Origin: a virus
Taxonomy: Duplodnaviria; Heunggongvirae; Uroviricota; Caudoviricetes
DNA: 34,397 bases
Strand: one strand, 5' to 3'
IMG/VR virus record: IMGVR_UViG_2541047966_000009
Part shown: positions 21,686 through 28,699 of the stretch, piece after piece
Position numbering within the stretch: position 1 is the first letter of the stretch
How the letters are laid out: each line of letters begins with the position of its first letter
Notes under the pieces: model-generated
The model's database searches: none
The model's input: only the letters and a program-made list of their open reading frames with translations
Told to the model about the DNA's origin: nothing
Translations under genes and position numbers: made by a program

Positions 21686-21932
21686 GTGTGTCTCCTCGTT
21701 TGGTGGAGACAGCATCACAAATGTGGCGGGATACGGATTTTAAACAGCGTTAATAGTGAAGATGTAAACGTGCACTGCATGATGGCTTTGAAAGAACGAC
21801 CAGCCCGGTACCCGAACACCGGGCTGGCCATCGCCCCACAGGAATGCGCTGTGAGCCGACCAAGGTTCAGTCAGTCTCGCGAGACCAGACTAGCCTGCCA
21901 TATTTTTTATAATTGTAAAAGGCTTACAGATT
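21686..21932. promoter_or_regulatory. divergent intergenic region: candidate late-operon promoter (leftward) and dam promoter (rightward)
   Basis: 247-bp non-coding gap between divergent holin and methyltransferase genes; contains perfect 10-bp inverted repeat CCAGCCCGGT-n8-ACCGGGCTGG at ~21800-21827 and AT-rich TTTTTTATAATTGTAAAAGG before dam. Confidence 0.4.
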
Positions 21933-22703
21933 ATGAAAATGCAGACATTACCCATCGTTCCATGGATTGGTGGCAAACGCCGCCTTGCAAAACACATCCT
22001 GCCGCTGTTTCCGGCGCATGAATGTTATGTGGAGCCGTTTTGTGGGGCAGCAGCGCTCTATTTTCTTAAGGTACCCGGCAAGATCGAAGTCATTAATGAT
22101 ATCAACGGTGAGCTGGTGAACCTGTATCGGGTGGTAAAACATCATCTGGAAGAATTTGTACGCCAGTTCAAATGGGCGCTGGTCAGCCGGCAGATCTACA
22201 AATGGCTGCAGATCACCCCGGAAGAAACACTGACGGATATCCAGCGTGCAGCACGGTTCTACTACCTTCAGAAGCAGGCGTTTGGGGGCAAGGTGGCGGA
22301 GCACAGCTTTGGTACCTCCACCATATCCCCGCCACGCTTCAACCTGCTGCGTATTGAAGAAGAACTGTCAGCGGCACACCTGCGGCTTTCCAGAACGGTC
22401 ATAGAACACATGGACTGGCAACAGTGCATAGAACGATATGATCGCCCGCATACGTTGTTCTACTGTGACCCTCCATACTGGGGAACGGAAGGTTATGGTG
22501 TGGAGTTCGGACTAGAAAATTATGATCATATGGCAGATTTAGCACGCAGGATCAAAGGGAAGATGATTATATCGGTGAACGATATCCCGGAAATGCGGCA
22601 GGCATTCAACGGTCTAAATATTCAGTCGGTTGATATCAGCTACAACCTCAAGATCACTGGCAAATCCAGTCGCAAGAAGGAACTCATTATCCTCAACTTT
22701 TGA
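21933..22703 (+). CDS. DNA N6-adenine methyltransferase, Dam-like, apparently orphan
   Basis: 256-aa ORF; SAM-binding motif EPFCGAAALYF near N-terminus and catalytic DPPY (FYCDPPYWGTEGYG) near C-terminus; no adjacent restriction endonuclease candidate. Confidence 0.8.
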   Translation: MKMQTLPIVPWIGGKRRLAKHILPLFPAHECYVEPFCGAAALYFLKVPGKIEVINDINGELVNLYRVVKHHLEEFVRQFKWALVSRQIYKWLQITPEETLTDIQRAARFYYLQKQAFGGKVAEHSFGTSTISPPRFNLLRIEEELSAAHLRLSRTVIEHMDWQQCIERYDRPHTLFYCDPPYWGTEGYGVEFGLENYDHMADLARRIKGKMIISVNDIPEMRQAFNGLNIQSVDISYNLKITGKSSRKKELIILNF

Positions 22704-23898
22704 CCGAATAGTAAGACTTCATGCAGTGAATCAAGTACTGCATGAAGTCAAGGGCTGGTTTTGTGTACCAAAAATAAACAGTGATAGCGGTAATAATTCC
22801 CATAACTAGAACACCACGTATAATCCAGAACGTACGTTTCTGCGTGTCTAGTCGCGCAGAAATACTGCTAAATACACCAGCCACGTCATCTTTAATGAAG
22901 GAATATTCCTTATTAATCTGTTTTTCTTTGTATTCAATTTCTTCGCCTAAGGCCTTTATAGATTGCATCTGGTTCGAAAGTGCCAGCCAGATTAACGTTG
23001 CAGCAAAAATGCATCCCAGAAGAATTATTGTGTTTGTTATCCCTTGGCCTGACCATTTCGTAGCCACTTTGAATTGGGTAGCTACGATAACAGAGGCAAC
23101 AGGAATGCCAAGTATATGGTTCTGGATATCTGAAAACGCTTTGTGGATTTTACCCATTTCTTCGACTTTTGCAGCACGCAGTTGATCCATTACTTTGTCA
23201 TAAGAGAATCCAGAAGAGTAGATACGATACCCTTTCAGAAACTTTTCATGCAGACGCTGAATATTGTCCAGTAAATAAGCGAATACTAGAGGTGAATCAA
23301 TTCCATCACTAACTGCTTGAATACTTTCAATCAGAATATCTAGCTTCTGATCCTTATGGGTATCATCATTGAAACAAGCTATAAGGTTATCAAGATACTC
23401 CCTTTGCAAATTTTGTACATTTTCTGCAGCGAAGTGCGGTAATAGCTTGATAACTTCTTTTTTCAGAAAAACTAACTGACAAGTTGAGTTATCAAAGTAG
23501 GCCGCGGCCTCTTTTAGCAGGTTAACGAACTCGAGAATCTTCCGGTAGTTGCTGATGAAAACGGGGATATCTTCATCATCATTACGAAATTTTGTTTCTA
23601 GGATGAAGTAATTAGCTGGCTCAAGGCACTGATGCTTTGGAGCATTTAGCAATTTTTCATGGGTGGAAAACACAAGTCCCAGTCCACTCCGTGGTGACGT
23701 CACACGTAGGATGATCGTGTTACCTGGAGCGATAGTGCCTGTATCAATAGAAAGACCATATTCACGAGGATCATCAAGCAAAGTATCAACCAGATCACAA
23801 TCGGACTGATCTAAGAGCAACAGCGAACCGACACGAAACCCCTCTTGGAATTCCATACGACGATACAGAGCTGTCAGCATCTCAAATGAAATCGCCAC
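22693..23898 (-). CDS. membrane protein of unknown function (large N-terminal soluble domain, two C-terminal TM helices); candidate effector
   Basis: 401-aa ORF, AT-rich; GTG start 2 nt after NdpA-like stop (coupled), internal ATG 18 nt later; hydrophobic ITNTIILLGCIFAATLIWLAL and TFWIIRGVLVMGIITAITVYFWY near C-terminus; no recognisable catalytic motif. Confidence 0.6.
   Translation of the reverse strand: MAISFEMLTALYRRMEFQEGFRVGSLLLLDQSDCDLVDTLLDDPREYGLSIDTGTIAPGNTIILRVTSPRSGLGLVFSTHEKLLNAPKHQCLEPANYFILETKFRNDDEDIPVFISNYRKILEFVNLLKEAAAYFDNSTCQLVFLKKEVIKLLPHFAAENVQNLQREYLDNLIACFNDDTHKDQKLDILIESIQAVSDGIDSPLVFAYLLDNIQRLHEKFLKGYRIYSSGFSYDKVMDQLRAAKVEEMGKIHKAFSDIQNHILGIPVASVIVATQFKVATKWSGQGITNTIILLGCIFAATLIWLALSNQMQSIKALGEEIEYKEKQINKEYSFIKDDVAGVFSSISARLDTQKRTFWIIRGVLVMGIITAITVYFWYTKPALDFMQYLIHCMKSYYSVKS
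22715..22749. other. perfect 13-bp inverted repeat (hairpin) at the convergent dam / membrane-protein gene ends
   Basis: GACTTCATGCAGT-gaatcaagt-ACTGCATGAAGTC, starting ~12 nt after the dam stop and overlapping the last codons of the minus-strand 401-aa gene; no adjacent U-tract. Confidence 0.4.
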
Positions 23899-23900
23899 GA

Positions 23901-24908
23901 TTAAACCTCAGTCATCCACATTTCCCTAAATTCTTCAGGTACATTACGTAGGGTGATAATATTTGTTTCCGGATCATAATCAATATAGCCTTCAGTTTTC
24001 CCTTCCCGGTCAAACTTAAGTTCCCAATATTTAGACTTGCCTTTAAAAGATACCAGAGCCCGAATGACTCGACCATCAGGAACGAAGCCATCCGATAACT
24101 CCAACTCTTCAGCAGCAAGTTTACCAGATAACTCCTCGGGAGCCTGGGGCCAAATGGCATTAACAAGGGTTTCAAGACTAAGTGGTTCACCAGCCTTACT
24201 TAGTGCATGTAAGTGTTCAAACGCATTCTTAAGAAATGCATCTTTTTCAGCGCCGTCAAGTCCTTTCTCTGCCGCAAATGCTTTTAAAACGTCACGTAAC
24301 TTTTCAGACTCTCGTTTGGCGATTAAGACATCATTACAGCCTAGGAACTGTTTAAAATAGTTTGAAACATTACCTTGCCCCTTAAGAAAACTGATATAGC
24401 GCTCTGCGCCACTTTCCCACGCGGTTAAGTCAATGCGCCCAGCCATACGCAGCTTAGCAATATCAAGATAGGTACTATCTTGGATGTTAAAATCATCTGT
24501 GACAGTGGACCCAATGGTAGCGCTTACAATAGCTATCAACAGGTGTTCATTGTGTCCTATCACGATATTTGCAAAAAGAACATAACCACCAGTAGCCATG
24601 TTTTCTCGCTGAGAACGTTCCGTCAGGTGATGCATCATTCGGCAGGAACTTTGGTAGAAATCATCAACACCTTCGAGAAAGTCCCCAGCCATTCGTTCCA
24701 TAGGATAGTTATCCGTATCGCCTTCAAAATAGCCATAACCTTTACCTGTGCGTCCTGCATATTTTGCACAAATATCGTTTATAAGGCGCTGAGAGGCTTC
24801 AGTAACTAGACCTTCTTCAGGACTCAATCTCTCAGAAGCGTCTCCATTTTGTTGTTTGTCTAAAATGTGAACTACAACGTGTTTAACTTCAATGGTCTGC
24901 TCAGACAT
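23901..24908 (-). CDS. divergent NdpA/YejK-family nucleoid-associated protein homologue
   Basis: 335-aa ORF (same length as E. coli YejK); recalled family similarity in ...GGYVLFANIV..., ...STYLDIAKLRMAGRIDLTAWESGAERYISFLKGQGNVSNYFKQFLG... and C-terminal ...YDPETNIITLRNVPEEFRE; SD AAGGTGG 8 nt upstream; AT-rich. Confidence 0.6.
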   Translation of the reverse strand: MSEQTIEVKHVVVHILDKQQNGDASERLSPEEGLVTEASQRLINDICAKYAGRTGKGYGYFEGDTDNYPMERMAGDFLEGVDDFYQSSCRMMHHLTERSQRENMATGGYVLFANIVIGHNEHLLIAIVSATIGSTVTDDFNIQDSTYLDIAKLRMAGRIDLTAWESGAERYISFLKGQGNVSNYFKQFLGCNDVLIAKRESEKLRDVLKAFAAEKGLDGAEKDAFLKNAFEHLHALSKAGEPLSLETLVNAIWPQAPEELSGKLAAEELELSDGFVPDGRVIRALVSFKGKSKYWELKFDREGKTEGYIDYDPETNIITLRNVPEEFREMWMTEV

Positions 24909-24978
24909 TGGCTATCCACCTTATTTTTTATTGCTTAATGGCAAATAATTTCTGCTATATGTTCTCGTTAGGAACACA

Positions 24979-25386
24979 TTAACCCACATTTTTTAACCGC
25001 TCAATCGTTGCGGATAATTCCTTCAGTTGTTTTTCCATCTCAATCACACGCTGTTTTTCTTCAGCGCCTCGCATGAGATCTCGCCGAACCTCAGGATCTA
25101 ACTGGTTTAGAAGTTCAAGCATTTTAAGGTCTGACGGGCTGAATTGATGTTGTGTTGGTACAGCAACAATTTCTTTAGATGGAATATGTTCTTTACCGGT
25201 AAGTAGCCAATCGATCGATACACCCAAATGGGCACTTAGCGCAACAAGAGCCTCTGCGTTTGGTTCTCTCTCTCCACGCAAATAGTTTTGAAGTGAGCGA
25301 TATGGAATTTTTGATAAGTCAGATAATGCCTTTATTGTCATGCCATTAGCATCCATCACTTCACGCAATCTCTCTTTTGTACTCAT
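24979..25386 (-). CDS. prophage repressor, XRE-family HTH
   Basis: Start at ATG MSTKERLREVMDANGMTIKALSDLSKIPYRSLQNYLRGEREPNAEALVALSAHLGVSIDWLL (HTH at N-terminus), coiled-coil C-terminus; divergent from Ner-like gene; ORF-track TTG start at 25482 unlikely. Confidence 0.7.
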   Translation of the reverse strand: MSTKERLREVMDANGMTIKALSDLSKIPYRSLQNYLRGEREPNAEALVALSAHLGVSIDWLLTGKEHIPSKEIVAVPTQHQFSPSDLKMLELLNQLDPEVRRDLMRGAEEKQRVIEMEKQLKELSATIERLKNVG

Positions 25387-25402
25387 TTGAACATATCTCA
25401 AT

Positions 25403-25430
25403 TTGACACACTCATTTGGGTGTGTACAAT
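25403..25430 (+). promoter_or_regulatory. candidate sigma70 early promoter with overlapping operator-like inverted repeat
   Basis: TTGACA-16 nt-TACAAT about 40 nt upstream of the Ner-like start; inverted repeat ACACAC-n8-GTGTGT (~25406-25425) overlaps spacer and -10. Confidence 0.5.
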
Positions 25431-25468
25431 AGACCCAATAGAGTACATCATAACCTAACAGGAACACG

Positions 25469-25699
25469 GTGCATATGAACAAACAACAAGTTCGGGCACG
25501 GCTGGTTGAACGAGGCAGTAGCTTGCGCCAGTTCGCGCTTAACGCGGGCTATGAACCACGAACAGTCACCCAGGCAGTCAGTCGCTGGGCTGGTAAAAGT
25601 GAACTACCTCGCGGTCGTTTGACTTATCGGATTTTGCGAGATCTATCGGTTGCAATAGGTAAAGAAGTTACCCCCGGTATCCTTAAGGAGGCGTCATGA
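25469..25699 (+). CDS. ner: Ner-like DNA-binding regulator (Mu Ner/Nlp family)
   Basis: 76-aa ORF; ...RARLVERGSSLRQFALNAGYEPRTVTQAVSRWAG... resembles Ner-family HTH; first gene of rightward early operon; GTG start with AGGA 6 nt upstream (ATG 2 codons later). Confidence 0.65.
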   Translation: MHMNKQQVRARLVERGSSLRQFALNAGYEPRTVTQAVSRWAGKSELPRGRLTYRILRDLSVAIGKEVTPGILKEAS

Positions 25700-26004
25700 A
25701 TAAACCAAATACATCAAGCTCAGGTACCCGTATTTTGCGCGTTCTTAAGGCCTTACGTGGCCACGCTTTGAACGGTGTTTCTAACGGGGAACTAGCGGTT
25801 GCACTGCACGAATCACCGGCAAACATCAACCGGGCACTTAACACGCTCATTGAAGAAGGGTTGGCTCTGAAACTAGAAAACGGGCGTTTCGCACCAGGCA
25901 TCCAGTTGCTGCAGATCGCCATGGCCCACAGTAACGAGATGGCACGTGCACAGGATCGCATTAACGAAATCAACCAACGTGTTATTTCAGGTAGTCGTTT
26001 GTAA
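25696..26004 (+). CDS. small winged-helix transcriptional regulator (IclR-type N-terminal HTH-like)
   Basis: 102-aa ORF overlapping Ner-like stop (ATGA); RILRVLKALRGHALNGVSNGELAVALHESPANINRALNTLIEEGLA pattern. Confidence 0.5.
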   Translation: MNKPNTSSSGTRILRVLKALRGHALNGVSNGELAVALHESPANINRALNTLIEEGLALKLENGRFAPGIQLLQIAMAHSNEMARAQDRINEINQRVISGSRL

Positions 26005-26014
26005 GGAGTAATCA

Positions 26015-26926
26015 ATGGGACGCACCAAATCACCGGTTAGCACTGAACTGAACGTCGAGGTACCGCTGTCGGATGATCTCAATGTCAGTCTAAACGCCAT
26101 GACACAGCATCGCATGGAAATCATGCAACAGTTCGGCGATGGTCTGCCCTATGAGCGCGATCGTGTTGCCCATGAGGCACGCTTTTATATGGCACAGAGC
26201 GCTGAGGCCATGCTGGAGGCAGGTAAGCGGCTGATAATCCTTAAGGAAAATGAACCACACGGGGAGTTTATAAAGATTCTTGAAAGTGAGTTGGGGCTGG
26301 CATACCGGACATCTGTGAGAATGATGCAAGCATCGACAAAATACTTATCCCCGGCGCTGAAACCAAATGTGCCAACGTTGGCACATTTGGGAAAAGCCAA
26401 ACTTTTCGAATTAATGACAGAAGACGACGAAGAGCTTGCCGAACTGGCCGACGGCGGCACAGTTGCCGGCCTGACGCTTGACGACGTTGATCGCATGTCA
26501 GTACGCGAACTTCGCCAGGCCCTGCGCGAAGCGCGCGAAACCAACGCAGCACAACAGCGCGTACTCGCCGATAAAAATGAAAAAATTGATTCTCTCTCTA
26601 CCAGACTGGAAAAGAAATCCCGTATTCAGCCGCCTGAGCCTGATGAGGAGGTTAAGAAGCTGCGGGCGGAAGTGACAGCATTAGCGGTTGAGGCGGAATC
26701 TGCTATCGCCGTTCGACTGTCCAGCGCTTTTGAGACACTGTGCGCATATTGTGCTGAAAACATGATTGATACCCCCAGAGACTTCATGGCAGGCCTGGTC
26801 TGTCAACTGGAAAGCACAGCGCGTAGCCTGCGCTCCACATTTGACCTGCCGGACGAGCCAACAGGCAATGCAGCGCCTTCATGGCTGACTGAGCCGACGC
26901 CACAGATTAACGGGCTGGAGGCATAA
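26015..26926 (+). CDS. conserved hypothetical early protein
   Basis: 303-aa ORF between regulators and transposase; acidic, coiled-coil-like middle; no catalytic motif recognised. Confidence 0.5.
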   Translation: MGRTKSPVSTELNVEVPLSDDLNVSLNAMTQHRMEIMQQFGDGLPYERDRVAHEARFYMAQSAEAMLEAGKRLIILKENEPHGEFIKILESELGLAYRTSVRMMQASTKYLSPALKPNVPTLAHLGKAKLFELMTEDDEELAELADGGTVAGLTLDDVDRMSVRELRQALREARETNAAQQRVLADKNEKIDSLSTRLEKKSRIQPPEPDEEVKKLRAEVTALAVEAESAIAVRLSSAFETLCAYCAENMIDTPRDFMAGLVCQLESTARSLRSTFDLPDEPTGNAAPSWLTEPTPQINGLEA

Positions 26927-26929
26927 CCA

Positions 26930-28699
26930 ATGAATGCTGCCCTGACTGAACGACTGGTTTATGTCGCCCGCGCGGCACGTGACGCGGGGCATGGTAAACG
27001 CGGTGCAATATACGACGCTGCCTGTGCTGAACTTGGCATGTCCCGCGCCACTCTGCTGCGCAGGCTGAAGGAGGTCTCTGTGACTGATAAACGCAAAAAA
27101 CGCGCCGATGCCGGGCGCAGCGCCCTGACCCGCGACGAAGCCGCGCTGATATCTGCCACACTGCGTGAGGCCACCCGCAAGAACGGTAAGCGTCTCTATT
27201 CCATCGCGGATGCAGTGGAAACCCTGCGGGCTAACGGCTTTATCTCCGCAGGCAGAACAGATGAAACCACCGGTGAGTTTTTCCCGTTGTCCGAAGATGC
27301 CATCAGCCGAGCCCTGCGTAACTATGGCCTGCACCCGGAACAACTGGATGCCCCTGCACCACATACTGAAGTGGCCAGTCTGCATCCCAATCATGTCTGG
27401 CAGATTGATGCCTCGCTCTGCACGCTTTACTACCTGAGTAATGGACACAAAGGACTGCAGGTGATGGACAGCGCGAAGTTCTACAAGAACAAGCCCGCTA
27501 ACCTTGCCCGTATCGCCAGTGACCGCGTGTGGAGTTACGAGATTACCGACCATGCCAGCGGCTGGATTTACGTTGAGTATGTGACGGGTGCGGAATCCGG
27601 TGAGAACCTGTGTTCTGTGCTTATCAACGCCATGCAGGAGCGTGGCGGCGCAGACGTGCTGCACGGCGTGCCGAAAATACTCTATCTCGACCCCGGCTCG
27701 GCAAACACCGCGGGTATGACGAAAAACATGTGCCGCTCACTGGGCATCGACCTGATAGCACACAAGCCGCATAACGCCCGCGCCACCGGACAGGTGGAAA
27801 AGGCGCGTGACATTATCGAACGCAAGCTGGAGCCGGGTCTGAAGTTCCGGCCGGTTCACAGTCTGGAAGAACTCAACGCGCTGGCCGCGAAATGGCGCAG
27901 CCACTTTAACGCCACGGCTGTTCACAGCCGCCACGGTAAAACCCGCACGGATATCTGGCTGAAGATTACTGCTGAGCAGCTGAAAAAAGCGCCTTCCGTT
28001 GAGGTATGCCGTGAACTGGCTGTGGCGACACCAGAACTCCGCAAAGTCACGCCAAAACTTCGTGTCTCGTTCCGGGGCACTGAATTTGACGTATCAACGG
28101 TACCGGGCGTACTGGTCGGTGAAAAACTGATGATTACCCGTAACCCGTGGCGCAGCGATGTGGCACAGGTGGTTCTGACCGGTGAGGACGGCCACGAGGC
28201 GTTCTTCCTGGTCGAAGAGGTCAGAAAGAACGAGTTTGGCTTTGCTGAAAGCGCGGCGGTATTTGGCGAAAGTTACAAAGCCCTGCCGGAAACCCCGGCG
28301 CAGATGGCGGCAAAAGAAACCGAAGCGCTGGTCACCGGTACAGACAACGCCGCAGATGCAGCTGCCGCACGCAAGGCGAAGGCGCTGCCGTTCGGCGGGC
28401 GGCTTGACCCATATAAACATATTGATGACGCCACACTTCCGGCCTGTATACCGAAGCGAGGTCAGGCCTCTGACGTACGCGGGCTGCGCACTGAACAACG
28501 TCCCATGACTCATGTGGAGGCCGCGAAAGCCCTGCGCGATAAGTTCAGCGCCGACGGCCTTACCTGGACGCCGGAACATTACCGCCAGTTAACGGCACAG
28601 TATCCGGACGGCGTACCGGAAGCCGCACTGGATGAAGTCATGGCCACGCTGACCACGCCGGCCCGCAGCAGCGTTATCAGCATTGTTAACGGCAACTGA
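26930..28699 (+). CDS. DDE transposase, Mu A-like
   Basis: 589-aa ORF; candidate DDE triad in ...HVWQIDAS..., ...ILYLDPGSANTAG..., ...ATGQVEKARDIIE...; directly upstream of AAA+ B-like gene. Confidence 0.8.
   Translation: MNAALTERLVYVARAARDAGHGKRGAIYDAACAELGMSRATLLRRLKEVSVTDKRKKRADAGRSALTRDEAALISATLREATRKNGKRLYSIADAVETLRANGFISAGRTDETTGEFFPLSEDAISRALRNYGLHPEQLDAPAPHTEVASLHPNHVWQIDASLCTLYYLSNGHKGLQVMDSAKFYKNKPANLARIASDRVWSYEITDHASGWIYVEYVTGAESGENLCSVLINAMQERGGADVLHGVPKILYLDPGSANTAGMTKNMCRSLGIDLIAHKPHNARATGQVEKARDIIERKLEPGLKFRPVHSLEELNALAAKWRSHFNATAVHSRHGKTRTDIWLKITAEQLKKAPSVEVCRELAVATPELRKVTPKLRVSFRGTEFDVSTVPGVLVGEKLMITRNPWRSDVAQVVLTGEDGHEAFFLVEEVRKNEFGFAESAAVFGESYKALPETPAQMAAKETEALVTGTDNAADAAAARKAKALPFGGRLDPYKHIDDATLPACIPKRGQASDVRGLRTEQRPMTHVEAAKALRDKFSADGLTWTPEHYRQLTAQYPDGVPEAALDEVMATLTTPARSSVISIVNGN

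What the first reader, a model, noticed from the sequence alone, without database searches (positions are those of the whole stretch)
24909..25468. Immunity region: repressor with overlapping early promoter and operator, and cargo operon in the repressor transcription unit
A near-consensus promoter (TTGACA-16-TACAAT) faces the Ner-like gene and is overlapped by the ACACAC/GTGTGT inverted repeat, a plausible repressor operator. The repressor gene ends about 70 bp before the NdpA-like gene on the same strand with no obvious terminator between, so the cargo is likely expressed with the repressor in lysogens.
Basis: partly seen in the sequence, partly recalled or inferred. Interest (0 to 1): 0.45.

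Follow-up and report, generated by a model that had tools for sequence, protein, structure and literature searches.

The report
Prophage switch with defence cargo
This is the lysis/lysogeny switch of a Mu-like (BcepMu-type) E. coli prophage: a repressor gene facing a strong early promoter that carries the repressor's binding sites, followed with no terminator by a two-gene anti-phage cassette. The layout is already familiar from phage lambda's cI-rexAB.

Summary
TTGACA-16-TACAAT (25403-25430) is the only 11/12 sigma-70 match in the 34-kb window, and it is conserved in all relatives. The repressor (24979-25386, minus strand) ends 70 bp before the NdpA-like gene, with no terminator between them.

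It encloses the likely operator, a 12-bp palindrome ACYC-N4-GRGT. The only two exact copies in the window are O1 (25410-21, in the promoter spacer) and O2 (25433-44, over +1). A degenerate O3 covers the repressor ATG, and a fourth site lies inside the repressor gene (25222-33).

Relatives with a different repressor DNA-binding domain carry a different palindrome at the same four positions. That is the strongest evidence that these are operators.

The site after the repressor is a cargo slot holding at least five alternative cargos, 23-122 nt from the stop codon. Here the cargo is a YejK-like nucleoid protein plus a membrane partner. Both are remote homologues of an experimentally validated E. 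coli defence pair (DefensePredictor DS-1) and match type II PANGU architecture.

Co-transcription with the repressor is likely but inferred. This is a new member of a known kind and of moderate interest.

The parts
25403..25408 (+). -35 hexamer TTGACA of the early promoter Pe
   Evidence: Conserved as TTGACA, TTGACC or TTGACT in all relatives.
25425..25430 (+). -10 hexamer TACAAT of Pe; predicted start near 25437
   Evidence: Reads TACAAT, TAAAAT, TAATAT or TATCAT in relatives.
25410..25421 (.). Operator O1, ACTCATTTGGGT (ACYC-N4-GRGT), inside the Pe spacer.
   Evidence: One of only two exact motif matches in the window. Sits at -29.5 from the repressor ATG in all homoimmune relatives. Heteroimmune relatives have TTATTCA-N3-TGAATAA at the same place.
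25433..25444 (.). Operator O2, ACCCAATAGAGT. It lies exactly between the Pe -10 and the candidate Pc -10, with 2 nt on each side, and covers about -4 to +8 of both promoters.
   Evidence: Second exact match in the window. An exact match at -52.5 from the repressor ATG in every listed relative with the YRSLQNYLRGER recognition helix except L108 (-54.5); L123/L124, listed without hits, keep only the ACYC half.
25381..25392 (.). Degenerate operator O3, ACTCATTTGAAC (one good half-site), over the repressor start codon and about -50 from the Pe start
   Evidence: Direct repeat ACTCATTTG with O1. Heteroimmune relatives have a 2-mismatch copy of their own palindrome at the same position, -1.
25222..25233 (.). 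Intragenic operator O4, ACCCAAATGGGC (1 mismatch in this allele), 188 bp from O1, in codons 52-55 of the repressor gene
   Evidence: An exact match at +158.5 in L005, L008, L095, L096, L101, L103, L108, L109, L110 and L116. Heteroimmune L009/L010 carry their own palindrome (1 mismatch) at +145.
25447..25452 (-). Candidate -10 (TATGAT) of the repressor promoter Pc; predicted start near 25440. The -35 is poor.
   Evidence: A TAnnnT element is kept at this position in seven diverged lineages: TATGAT, TATCAT, TATTGT, TATTAT, TAGACT, TAATAT. It falls below the scan threshold. Inference only.
24979..25386 (-). Immunity repressor, 135 aa: an N-terminal HTH_3/CI-type domain, a linker and a C-terminal helical domain. 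There is no S24 peptidase domain.
   Evidence: Pfam HTH_3 2e-12 and Phage_CI_repr 1.7e-6. PHROG 'transcriptional repressor'. Alignment A3 shows the N-terminal domain swapped in heteroimmune relatives while the C-terminal half is shared.
24960..24976 (-). Conserved palindrome / weak stem-loop TGTTC-N7-GAACA, immediately after the repressor stop codon. It marks the right-hand boundary of the cargo slot.
   Evidence: Unique in the window. The stem is invariant and the loop variable across relatives, whatever the cargo. Folding energy is -2.9 to -10.7 kcal/mol with no U tract.
24909..24978 (-). 70-nt repressor-cargo junction. About 25 nt are shared with relatives that carry other cargos. About 45 nt are cargo-specific leader ending in a strong Shine-Dalgarno sequence, AAGGTGGA.
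23901..24908 (-). Cargo gene 1: YejK/NdpA-family nucleoid-associated protein (Pag2A-like sensor)
   Evidence: Pfam NA37 6e-81. PDB 9be2 YejK 6.7e-30 over the full length. PHROG 3767. 23% identity, E = 7e-9, to the NAP of validated DS-1.
22693..23898 (-). Cargo gene 2: 401-aa partner with an acidic soluble N-terminal domain and a C-terminal membrane region. Its start lies 2 nt after the stop of gene 1.
   Evidence: Hydropathy and charge. AF2 model with pLDDT 82. 23% identity, E = 6e-10, to the DS-1 partner WP_000150292.1. Always adjacent to an NA37 gene in other genomes. PHROG 5023.
25475..25699 (+). First early gene: a small HTH protein in the Ner/Cro position
   Evidence: PHROG 8503. HTH_35 only E = 0.007. 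Nearly identical in heteroimmune relatives.
21933..22703 (+). Convergent dam-type methyltransferase gene, the left-hand boundary of the cargo slot. It overlaps the 3' end of cargo gene 2 by 11 bp.
   Evidence: Pfam MethyltransfD12. Same position in relatives that carry other cargos.

Best explanation
The region is the immunity switch of a BcepMu-type transposable prophage of E. coli.

Repression of the early operon. A 135-aa repressor has a CI-like helix-turn-helix domain and a helical C-terminal domain. It most likely binds as a dimer to 12-bp palindromes ACYC-N4-GRGT. O1 lies in the spacer of the strong early promoter Pe, and O2 lies over its start site. Occupancy of the two sites should shut off the rightward operon: Ner-position protein, IclR-type HTH protein, DUF3102 protein, transposase, and the ExeA-like B protein.

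Control of the repressor's own promoter. O2 sits symmetrically between the Pe -10 and a conserved -10-like element on the other strand, the candidate repressor promoter Pc. The same bound dimer would therefore limit repressor synthesis. Two weaker sites, O3 over the repressor ATG and O4 188 bp away inside the repressor gene, would add cooperativity or looping and further autoregulation.

The cargo. The repressor transcript meets no terminator. It probably continues through a 70-nt junction into a two-gene cassette. That cassette encodes a YejK-like nucleoid protein and a partner with an acidic N-terminal domain and a C-terminal membrane anchor. The architecture is that of type II PANGU and DefensePredictor DS-1. 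In those systems the nucleoid protein leaves the chromosome when an infecting phage degrades it, and then engages the effector to abort infection. The lysogen would thus make a superinfection defence whenever it makes repressor, as lambda does with cI-rexA-rexB.

What is shown and what is inferred. Shown in silico: the promoter; the positions, conservation and domain-linked switching of the operators; the absence of a terminator; cargo identity by homology; and the variability of the slot. Inferred: binding, looping, the position of Pc, read-through, and defence activity of this allele.
For: Promoter. It is unique in the window and conserved in relatives.

Operators.
- The only two exact motif copies in 34 kb lie 23 bp apart on Pe.
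- The positions -52.5 and -29.5 recur in the relatives that share the identical recognition helix, from E. coli, Mixta, Pantoea, Lelliottia, Klebsiella phage KP12 and IMG/VR contigs. O2 is exact in all of these that were scanned for it (shifted 2 bp in L108); O1 is degenerate in four. L123/L124 keep only the ACYC half.
- L008 has three exact copies against 0.38 expected.
- Heteroimmune relatives have a different N-terminal HTH but the same C-terminal domain and the same Ner-position protein. They carry TTATTCA-N3-TGAATAA at -53, -30, -1 and +145. That is five hits against 0.23 expected, reached in 0 of 200 shuffles. They carry no ACYC-N4-GRGT copies.
- The intragenic site keeps its specified bases while its N4 centre and flanking synonymous sites vary.

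Junction.
- No terminator-like site.
- Folding no better than shuffles.
- The hairpin is weak and lacks a U tract.
- The promoter-like hexamers in the window's leader are not conserved in L003/L005.
- Other cargos start 23-41 nt after the stop codon.
- Relatives L006 and L009 also lack terminators.
- In Salmonella, Morganella and Paraburkholderia the same cassette has an upstream region of 300 bp or more. The Salmonella and Morganella copies contain promoter-like hexamers, and the Morganella copies also a terminator-like hairpin.

Cargo.
- NA37 6e-81 and YejK structure 9be2 6.7e-30.
- Partner architecture.
- Remote homology of both proteins to the validated DS-1 pair.
- The PANGU type II description.

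Precedent. Abortive-infection genes that share the repressor promoter are known: rexAB and bstA.
Against: - There are no transcript, footprint or phenotype data.
- The repressor promoter is not identified with confidence: the -35 is poor and the candidate falls below the scan threshold.
- If O2 covers the Pc start, a fully repressed prophage would also throttle the cargo.
- A conserved palindrome directly after the repressor stop codon could attenuate or process the transcript.
- A 9/12 promoter-like site (TTGAGA-18-AATTAT, 25043 to 25014, minus strand) lies in the 3' end of the repressor gene and could drive the cargo on its own. Matches of this quality occur at chance frequency, and it is absent from the L004/KP12 allele.
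- O4 has one mismatch in this window and is lost (at least 2 mismatches) in the HLN-allele relatives.
- One-mismatch copies of the motif occur at chance frequency (39 found, 38 expected).
- In the most distant relatives (L123, L124) only the ACYC half-site is kept.
- Identity to the validated defence pair is only 23%.
Confidence: 0.7

Rival explanations
1. The cargo is an autonomous moron. It would be transcribed from its own promoter, either in the 3' end of the repressor gene or in the junction, and not from the repressor promoter. Its position next to the repressor would then reflect a recombination hotspot only.
For: - A promoter-like site, TTGAGA-18-AATTAT (9/12), lies at 25043 to 25014 on the cargo strand. 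The same sequence is present in L009, which shares this C-terminal allele.
- In other prophages the same cassette has its own upstream region, with promoter-like hexamers in the Salmonella and Morganella copies.
- Lambda itself has an internal promoter for rexB (my own knowledge).
- The 297-aa cargo type has a 122-nt gap with a perfect TTGACA just after the stem-loop.
Against: - Matches of 9/12 occur at chance frequency (8 found, 8.0 expected).
- The -10 is destroyed in the L004/KP12 allele.
- The -10-like hexamers in the window's leader are not conserved in L003/L005.
- Gaps of 23-41 nt for other cargos leave no room for a promoter outside the repressor gene.
- Even with an extra promoter, read-through from the repressor promoter would still occur, because there is no terminator.
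Confidence: 0.2
2. The conserved TGTTC-N7-GAACA element after the repressor stop codon uncouples the two units. It would act as an attenuator, an RNase processing site, or a protein-bound roadblock. Cargo expression would then be low or conditional rather than constitutive in lysogens.
For: - The element is invariant in its stem and variable in its loop across relatives, regardless of cargo and immunity type.
- It is unique in the window.
- Its local fold is better than shuffles in the window, L008 and L009 (z = -4.2, -2.5 and -3.4).
Against: - There is no U tract.
- The stem is only 5-6 bp and is AT-rich. In three relatives the energy is -2.9 kcal/mol, and two of these are indistinguishable from shuffles.
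- In several relatives the cargo ribosome-binding site follows within 15-20 nt.
- No compensatory changes were seen, so an RNA role is unproven.
Confidence: 0.2
3. The NA37 protein and its membrane partner are not a defence system here. They would instead serve the prophage or the host, for example as a nucleoid protein that modulates transposition or prophage and host gene expression, as NdpA2 does for the PAPI-1 element.
For: - YejK-family proteins are general DNA-binding clamps.
- An NdpA paralogue regulates transfer of a genomic island (title and abstract of PMC8565334).
- PADLOC 2023 has no model for the NAP.
- Identity to the validated system is low.
Against: - The pair travels as a unit among unrelated prophage types, at classical moron sites. 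In Paraburkholderia an Mrr-type restriction gene lies about 2.6 kb downstream.
- Both members are homologous to a pair that was experimentally defensive.
- The architecture equals type II PANGU, where both genes were needed for protection.
Confidence: 0.15
4. The palindromes on Pe are not repressor operators. They could be chance symmetry, sites for the Ner-position protein, or an RNA structure in the leader of the repressor mRNA.
For:
- One-mismatch motif copies occur at chance level.
- The repeat would also form a hairpin in a Pc-derived leader.
Against: - The palindrome sequence switches together with the repressor's N-terminal domain, while the Ner-position protein stays about 98% identical.
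- The exact copies cluster only at the switch.
- A fourth copy sits inside the repressor gene in both immunity types.
Confidence: 0.07

Closest known systems
Phage lambda immunity region (cI-rexA-rexB transcribed from PRM; OR1-OR3 between divergent PR and PRM)
   Same: - A CI-type HTH repressor is transcribed divergently from the early lytic promoter.
- Three closely spaced palindromic operators (23 and 29 bp apart, against 24 and 23 bp in lambda) overlap that promoter.
- The repressor gene is followed on the same strand, without a terminator, by a cytoplasmic non-specific DNA-binding protein and then a membrane protein that together exclude other phages.
- The literature links both RexA and the YejK N-domain to the RdgC / kinetochore Cenp-N fold.
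   Different: - The phage is a transposable BcepMu type, not lambdoid.
- The repressor has no S24 autocleavage domain.
- The geometry does not allow lambda-style activation of the repressor promoter from the middle operator.
- A fourth operator lies inside the repressor gene instead of a distant OL.
- The cargo proteins show no sequence match to RexA or RexB, and the membrane partner is 401 aa with a large soluble domain, not a 144-aa four-helix protein.
Type II PANGU (Pag2A YejK-like NAP + Pag2B; bioRxiv 10.64898/2026.04.06.716658) and DefensePredictor DS-1/D390 (WP_000355468.1 + WP_000150292.1; PMC13092281)
   Same: - A bicistronic pair with a YejK-family protein first.
- A partner of about 400 aa with an acidic soluble N-terminal part and a C-terminal membrane region (262-401 here, 269-404 in DS-1).
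- Both proteins align with the DS-1 pair (E = 7e-9 and 6e-10).
   Different: - Identity is only 23%.
- The NAP here lacks the N-terminal zinc ribbon of the DS-1 protein.
- Neither paper's main text contains the word 'prophage', so neither reports the prophage or repressor-operon location.
- Activity of this allele is untested.
BstA of Salmonella prophage BTP1 and its homologues (PMC8585504)
   Same: An abortive-infection gene lies directly downstream of the prophage repressor and presumably shares its promoter. The authors describe that position as a mosaic hotspot.
   Different: BstA is a single unrelated protein with a cognate anti-BstA DNA element. The host phages are lambdoid or P22-like. 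No self-immunity element was looked for here.
Phage Mu c-ner switch (O1-O3, Pe and Pc) and phage BcepMu
   Same: - A transposable phage whose repressor gene faces an early operon: a small HTH protein, then a DDE transposase, then an ATPase.
- Operators overlap both the early promoter and the repressor promoter.
- Gene order and 83-92% nucleotide identity to phages classed or annotated as BcepMu-like.
   Different: - The repressor has a lambda-CI-type HTH rather than Mu c's MuA-like winged helix (my own knowledge).
- The switch lies in the middle of the genome, next to dam and the lysis genes, not at the left end.
- A cargo slot lies behind the repressor.
- Membership of the Ner family is weak.
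Auxiliary operators within coding sequence (lac O2 in lacZ, gal OI in galE; distal operator OD of phage TP901-1 CI)
   Same: A weaker extra operator 145-190 bp from the main cluster, inside a gene, suits looping by an oligomeric repressor (my own knowledge of these systems).
   Different: Here the site lies within the repressor's own coding sequence and therefore within the repressor-cargo transcription unit. Looping is not shown.

Membership tests
CI/Cro-type phage immunity switch | HTH (Xre/CI) repressor gene transcribed divergently from the early lytic operon | tested here: met
   HTH_3 2e-12, Phage_CI_repr 1.7e-6 and PHROG 'transcriptional repressor'. Divergent arrangement.
CI/Cro-type phage immunity switch | Several palindromic operators overlapping the early promoter, specific to the repressor's DNA-binding domain | tested here: met
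   In silico only. Exact copies occur only at Pe. Positions are conserved, and the sequence switches with the HTH domain.
CI/Cro-type phage immunity switch | RecA-dependent autocleavage domain (Peptidase_S24) in the repressor | tested here: not met
   No S24 hit. Residues 85-135 are a conserved helical segment. Induction must work some other way.
CI/Cro-type phage immunity switch | Physical binding of the repressor to the operators and repression of the early promoter | not testable with these tools
   Needs EMSA or footprinting and reporter assays.
Mu-type c/ner early region | Ner-family (HTH_35) protein as the first early gene | tested here: inconclusive
   PF13693 E = 0.007, 16.7 bits against a cut-off of 25. 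PHROG 8503 has no function.
Mu-type c/ner early region | DDE transposase and an ATPase partner downstream in the early operon | tested here: met
   A 589-aa ORF at 26930-28699, whose counterparts in relatives are annotated as transposase or DDE-type integrase/transposase/recombinase, followed by a 397-aa ORF whose counterpart in phage PhiKM is annotated 'Eha protein'. ExeA/ATPase character is my reading of the sequence; it was not scanned.
Bcepmuvirus-like phage | Nucleotide similarity and synteny with classified members | tested here: met
   91.6% identity over 332 nt to Escherichia phage PhiKM (Bcepmuvirus). 83% over the switch to Klebsiella phage KP12 and phage Phi06_2974 B. Same gene order.
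Type II PANGU defence system | YejK/NdpA-family nucleoid-associated protein as the first gene | tested here: met
   NA37 6e-81 and PDB 9be2 6.7e-30 over the full length.
Type II PANGU defence system | Two-gene operon with less than 40 bp between the genes | tested here: met
   The start of the partner lies 2 nt after the NAP stop codon. The pair is adjacent in all contexts examined.
Type II PANGU defence system | Partner with an acidic N-terminal DNA-mimic ('DMK') domain and a C-terminal transmembrane region | tested here: inconclusive
   N-terminal residues 1-260 have pI 5.0 and net charge -11. Hydrophobic helices lie at about 262-380. The model has pLDDT 82 with long C-terminal helices.
Type II PANGU defence system | Protection against phages that requires both genes | not testable with these tools
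   Reported for PANGU-Ecu and, for a remote homologue, DS-1. Not tested for this allele.
DefensePredictor DS-1 (D390) | Homology of both proteins to WP_000355468.1 and WP_000150292.1 | tested here: met
   BLASTP E = 7e-9 (23% over 196 aa) and E = 6e-10 (23% over 302 aa). This is a remote relationship.
Lambda Rex exclusion system | RexA and RexB homologues | tested here: not met
   Neither protein matched a Rex family in PADLOC or Pfam. Only position, operon logic and a literature-level fold link via RdgC are shared.
Kiwa defence system | KwaA membrane protein plus KwaB (DUF4868) | tested here: not met
   The weak KwaA hit (E = 8e-5) covers the hydrophobic region only. The partner gene is NA37, not DUF4868.
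Intrinsic terminator between repressor and cargo | GC-rich stem followed by a U tract | tested here: not met
   No site in 24909-24978. The hairpin at 24960-76 has a 5-bp AT-rich core stem with no U tract.

The most novel reading that the evidence does not exclude
BcepMu-type phages keep a dedicated, recombination-delimited defence slot inside the repressor transcription unit. The invariant TGTTC-N7-GAACA element after the repressor stop codon would be its functional docking, processing or control signal. The intragenic operator O4, with O3, would make repressor bound within its own gene throttle transcription into the cargo. The level of the abortive-infection system would then be tied homeostatically to the repressor level, and so to the lysogenic state.
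Probability: 0.15. Interest if true: 0.6.

Novelty: new member of a known kind. Interest (0 to 1): 0.4.

Why it matters
- It gives a concrete, testable operator map (four sites and two promoters) for a group of transposable prophages. Some part of this locus is found in about 12% of complete E. coli genomes, and I found no description of this group's switch in the literature I searched.
- It shows that the repressor's DNA-binding domain and its operators are exchanged as one module, while the C-terminal domain, the Ner-position gene and the cargo are exchanged independently.
- It places a recently recognised class of defence, nucleoid-protein sensors with a membrane effector, inside a prophage repressor operon. 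That adds a natural expression context which neither source paper mentions. It also extends the rule from lambda rexAB and BTP1 bstA, that defence rides on the repressor promoter, to Mu-like phages.
- Practically, lysogens such as the probiotic strain M-17 may owe part of their phage resistance to this cassette.

Tried and rejected
- Kiwa: the KwaA hit is weak and confined to hydrophobic helices, and the partner gene is not DUF4868.
- Rex homology by sequence: neither cargo protein matched a Rex family in Pfam or PADLOC. Rex is kept only as an analogy.
- Foldseek of the partner model against the PDB: nothing below E = 0.26.
- Rfam and tRNA scans of the whole window: nothing.
- One-mismatch operator copies across the window: chance level, so not used.
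- TGTTC-N7-GAACA elsewhere in the window: no other copy.
- Lambda-like activation geometry for the repressor promoter: a start placed 42 bp from O1 would fall inside the ORF, so this was rejected.
- Leaderless repressor mRNA: there is no acceptable -10 at the right distance.
- Alternative Pc with -10 TATTGT (25432 to 25427): not conserved in the heteroimmune relatives.
- Internal promoter TTGAGA-18-AATTAT: not conserved in the L004/KP12 allele. Kept only as a rival.
- PANGU supplementary sequences: not held.
- The window's RefSeq protein ids in the DefensePredictor tables: not found, and the files are truncated.
- The other cargo types (the 177-aa and 143-aa lipoproteins and the 297 + 153-aa pair): no significant Pfam or PADLOC hits.
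Full report
WHAT THE WINDOW IS. The window is a BcepMu-type transposable prophage of E. coli. Positions 21700-26100 are 100% identical to E. coli MS20655. The switch is 83% identical to Klebsiella phage KP12 and Escherichia phage Phi06_2974 B. The neighbouring early genes are 92% identical to Escherichia phage PhiKM, which is classed as Bcepmuvirus.

The local gene order is as follows:
- tail, head and lysis genes on the minus strand, up to 21718;
- a dam-type methylase at 21933-22703 (+);
- two cargo genes on the minus strand, 22693-23898 and 23901-24908;
- the repressor at 24979-25386 (-);
- the early operon on the plus strand: a 74-aa HTH protein (25475-25699), an IclR-type HTH protein, a DUF3102 protein, a transposase and an ExeA-like protein.

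Cargo and repressor form an AT-rich island of 36-46% G+C in a backbone of 55-63%.

THE OBSERVATION. TTGACA-16-TACAAT at 25403-25430 is real. It is the only match of at least 11/12 in the window on either strand, against 0.26 expected. It is conserved in every relative.

The ACACAC/GTGTGT repeat is present. However, a perfect 6-nt inverted repeat turns up in 27% of shuffles of the intergenic region. Its outer bases also differ in close relatives.

The repressor stop codon and the NA37 start codon are 70 bp apart on the same strand. No terminator-like site lies between them. The junction folds no better than shuffles (z = -0.42).

THE OPERATORS. Aligning relatives showed that the conserved core is a 12-bp palindrome, ACYC-N4-GRGT. 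The whole window has exactly two exact copies:
- O1 (25410-25421) lies in the Pe spacer;
- O2 (25433-25444) lies just after the -10.

I collected relatives from genomes, E. coli and IMG/VR. Those whose repressor keeps the recognition helix YRSLQNYLRGER, apart from the two most distant (below), have an exact copy of O2 at -52.5 from the repressor ATG; in L108 it is shifted by 2 bp. Most have an exact copy of O1 at -29.5.

The half-site tolerates C or T at its third position on either arm. The window is a hybrid, ACTC...GGGT. I therefore do not count the L008 (ACTC/GAGT) versus L005 (ACCC/GGGT) difference as compensatory change.

The decisive evidence comes from heteroimmune relatives: L009, L010, L092 and L111-L122. 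They share the C-terminal half of the repressor and a nearly identical Ner-position protein. Their N-terminal domain is a different, Phage_CI_repr-type domain. They have no ACYC-N4-GRGT copies. Instead they carry TTATTCA-N3-TGAATAA at -53, -30 and -1 from the ATG, with a further copy at +145 inside the gene. That is five hits against 0.23 expected, reached in 0 of 200 shuffles.

So the positions are the same, and the sequence changes with the DNA-binding domain.

Two further sites follow from this comparison.
- O3 (25381-25392, ACTCATTTGAAC) has one good half-site and lies over the repressor ATG. It corresponds to the -1 site of the other immunity type.
- O4 (25222-25233) lies in codons 52-55 of the repressor gene, 188 bp from O1. 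It has one mismatch here, because Ala (GCC) replaces Thr (ACC). It is exact in L005, L008, L095, L096, L101, L103, L108, L109, L110 and L116. In those loci the specified bases are kept while the N4 centre (ATTT, AATT, GTTT) and the flanking synonymous positions vary.

A one-mismatch copy of a 14-specified-base palindrome inside a 411-bp gene, as in L010, has a chance expectation of about 7e-5. O4 is degraded in the HLN allele (L004, KP12, L098), so it is not indispensable.

In the most distant relatives (L123, L124) only the ACYC half of each site is kept.

THE REPRESSOR PROMOTER. No minus-strand promoter reaches the scan threshold. A TAnnnT element is conserved on the repressor strand in seven lineages: TATGAT here at 25452 to 25447, and TATCAT, TATTGT, TATTAT, TAGACT and TAATAT elsewhere.

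O2 then lies exactly between the two -10 hexamers, with 2 nt on each side. It covers about -4 to +8 of both Pe (start near 25437) and Pc (start near 25440).

I infer the following, without proof. Filling O1 silences Pe and removes its competition with Pc. Filling O2, O3 and O4 limits repressor synthesis. Because the Ner-position protein is shared by both immunity types, its target should lie in the shared DNA around the Pc -10.

THE JUNCTION AND THE CARGO SLOT. The palindrome TGTTC-N7-GAACA (24960-24976) follows directly after the repressor stop codon. It is unique in the window. It is kept in nearly all relatives, with an invariant stem and a variable loop. As RNA it is weak, at -2.9 to -10.7 kcal/mol, and has no U tract. 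Its role is unexplained.

Sequence homology between relatives with different cargos ends just beyond this element. The other boundary of the slot is the convergent dam gene.

The following occupants of the slot were found:
- the NA37 + 401-aa pair (gap 70 nt);
- a 175-178-aa lipoprotein (gap 23-41 nt);
- a 143-146-aa lipoprotein;
- small membrane proteins of 128-151 aa;
- a 297 + ~150-aa pair (gap 122 nt);
- nothing (L008).

Cargo type is not tied to immunity type.

The 45 nt of cargo-specific leader in the window contain no promoter that is conserved in L003 or L005. The same NA37-partner cassette also occurs in other settings:
- in a lambdoid Salmonella prophage, between Q and the lysis genes;
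- in Morganella prophages;
- in a Paraburkholderia island.

In all three it has an upstream region of 300 bp or more. The Salmonella and Morganella copies show promoter-like hexamers, and the Morganella copies also a terminator-like hairpin. This contrast is the best in-silico argument that, in this phage, the cassette relies on the repressor promoter.

THE CARGO. Gene 1 is a full-length YejK/NdpA homologue: NA37 6e-81, and the YejK structure 9be2 at 6.7e-30.

Gene 2 starts 2 nt after the stop of gene 1. It has an acidic soluble N-terminal part (pI 5.0) and hydrophobic helices from about residue 262. Its family has about 166 members, mostly in Enterobacterales, and was next to an NA37 gene in every context examined.

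Two 2026 papers bear on this pair.
- The PANGU preprint defines type II systems as a YejK-like sensor plus a partner with an N-terminal acidic DNA-mimic domain and a C-terminal membrane domain. Both genes are needed for abortive protection against T4, and the sensor leaves the nucleoid on infection.
- DefensePredictor validated DS-1, a nucleoid-associated protein plus a 404-aa protein with a membrane region at 269-404.

Both window proteins align with the DS-1 pair at 23% identity (E = 7e-9 and 6e-10). So the cargo is a remote member of this class. Its activity is untested.

Kiwa and Rex membership fail. The Rex parallel is one of position and logic. There is also a literature-level fold link, because both RexA and the YejK N-domain resemble RdgC and Cenp-N.

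COMPARISON AND VERDICT. Defence genes that share the repressor promoter are established for lambda rexAB and BTP1 bstA. The switch architecture is of the CI/Cro kind, but it lacks an autocleavage domain and is set in a Mu-like genome.

The finding is therefore a new member of a known kind. It has some specific points of interest:
- a four-site operator map that includes an intragenic site;
- modular exchange of the DNA-binding domain together with its operators;
- a conserved element that bounds the cargo slot;
- a nucleoid-sensor defence cassette in a repressor operon.

Co-transcription, binding and defence all remain to be shown experimentally.

Noticed in passing
window 21801-21828: A strong GC-rich inverted repeat, CCAGCCCGG-N10-CCGGGCTGG, lies between the dam upstream region and the holin gene. 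On the minus strand it is followed by TCGTTCTTTC. It is a likely terminator that would stop read-through from the repressor-cargo unit (antisense through dam) before the lysis and late genes. The scan missed it because its loop is longer than 8 nt.
   Followed up: partly
L009 5387-6677; L092 2107-3397; L111-L115: A different two-gene cargo occupies the same slot in about 23 E. coli genomes and several IMG/VR contigs: a 297-aa protein plus a membrane protein of about 150 aa. It has no significant Pfam or PADLOC hit. Its sizes and order recall RexA/RexB. A perfect TTGACA follows the stem-loop in its 122-nt leader.
   Followed up: partly
L001 5455-5988; L004 2549-3076; L006 5447-5980; L010 5375-5806: The commonest cargo behind this repressor family is a lipoprotein of 143-178 aa (N-terminus MTMRKLFLPL...SGC) with no family match. 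It is a candidate superinfection-exclusion protein.
   Followed up: no
window 24979-25180 and relatives (alignment A3): The repressor's C-terminal half (residues about 85-135, predicted helical) is shared by repressors with two unrelated N-terminal HTH domains. 62 of 5426 complete E. coli genomes carry one or the other type.
   Followed up: yes
window 22500-25500: Cargo and repressor form an AT-rich island of 36-46% G+C in a backbone of 55-63%. H-NS silencing could therefore also affect their expression.
   Followed up: no
window 22693-22703: The 3' ends of the convergent dam gene and the 401-aa cargo gene overlap by 11 bp. Transcripts of each would be antisense to the other.
   Followed up: no
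L008 5001-5930: In the Lelliottia relative there is no dam gene and no cargo. The holin and lysis genes follow the repressor on the same strand after about 200 nt, so something there must stop repressor transcripts.
   Followed up: no
window 24960-24976, 25389-25393, 25462-25466, 25476-25480: GAACA/TGTTC pentamers are over-represented around the switch: about 6 in 620 bp against about 1.2 expected. GAAC also recurs as the degenerate right half of weak operators (O3 here, O1 of L108, and the intragenic site of L098).
   Followed up: partly
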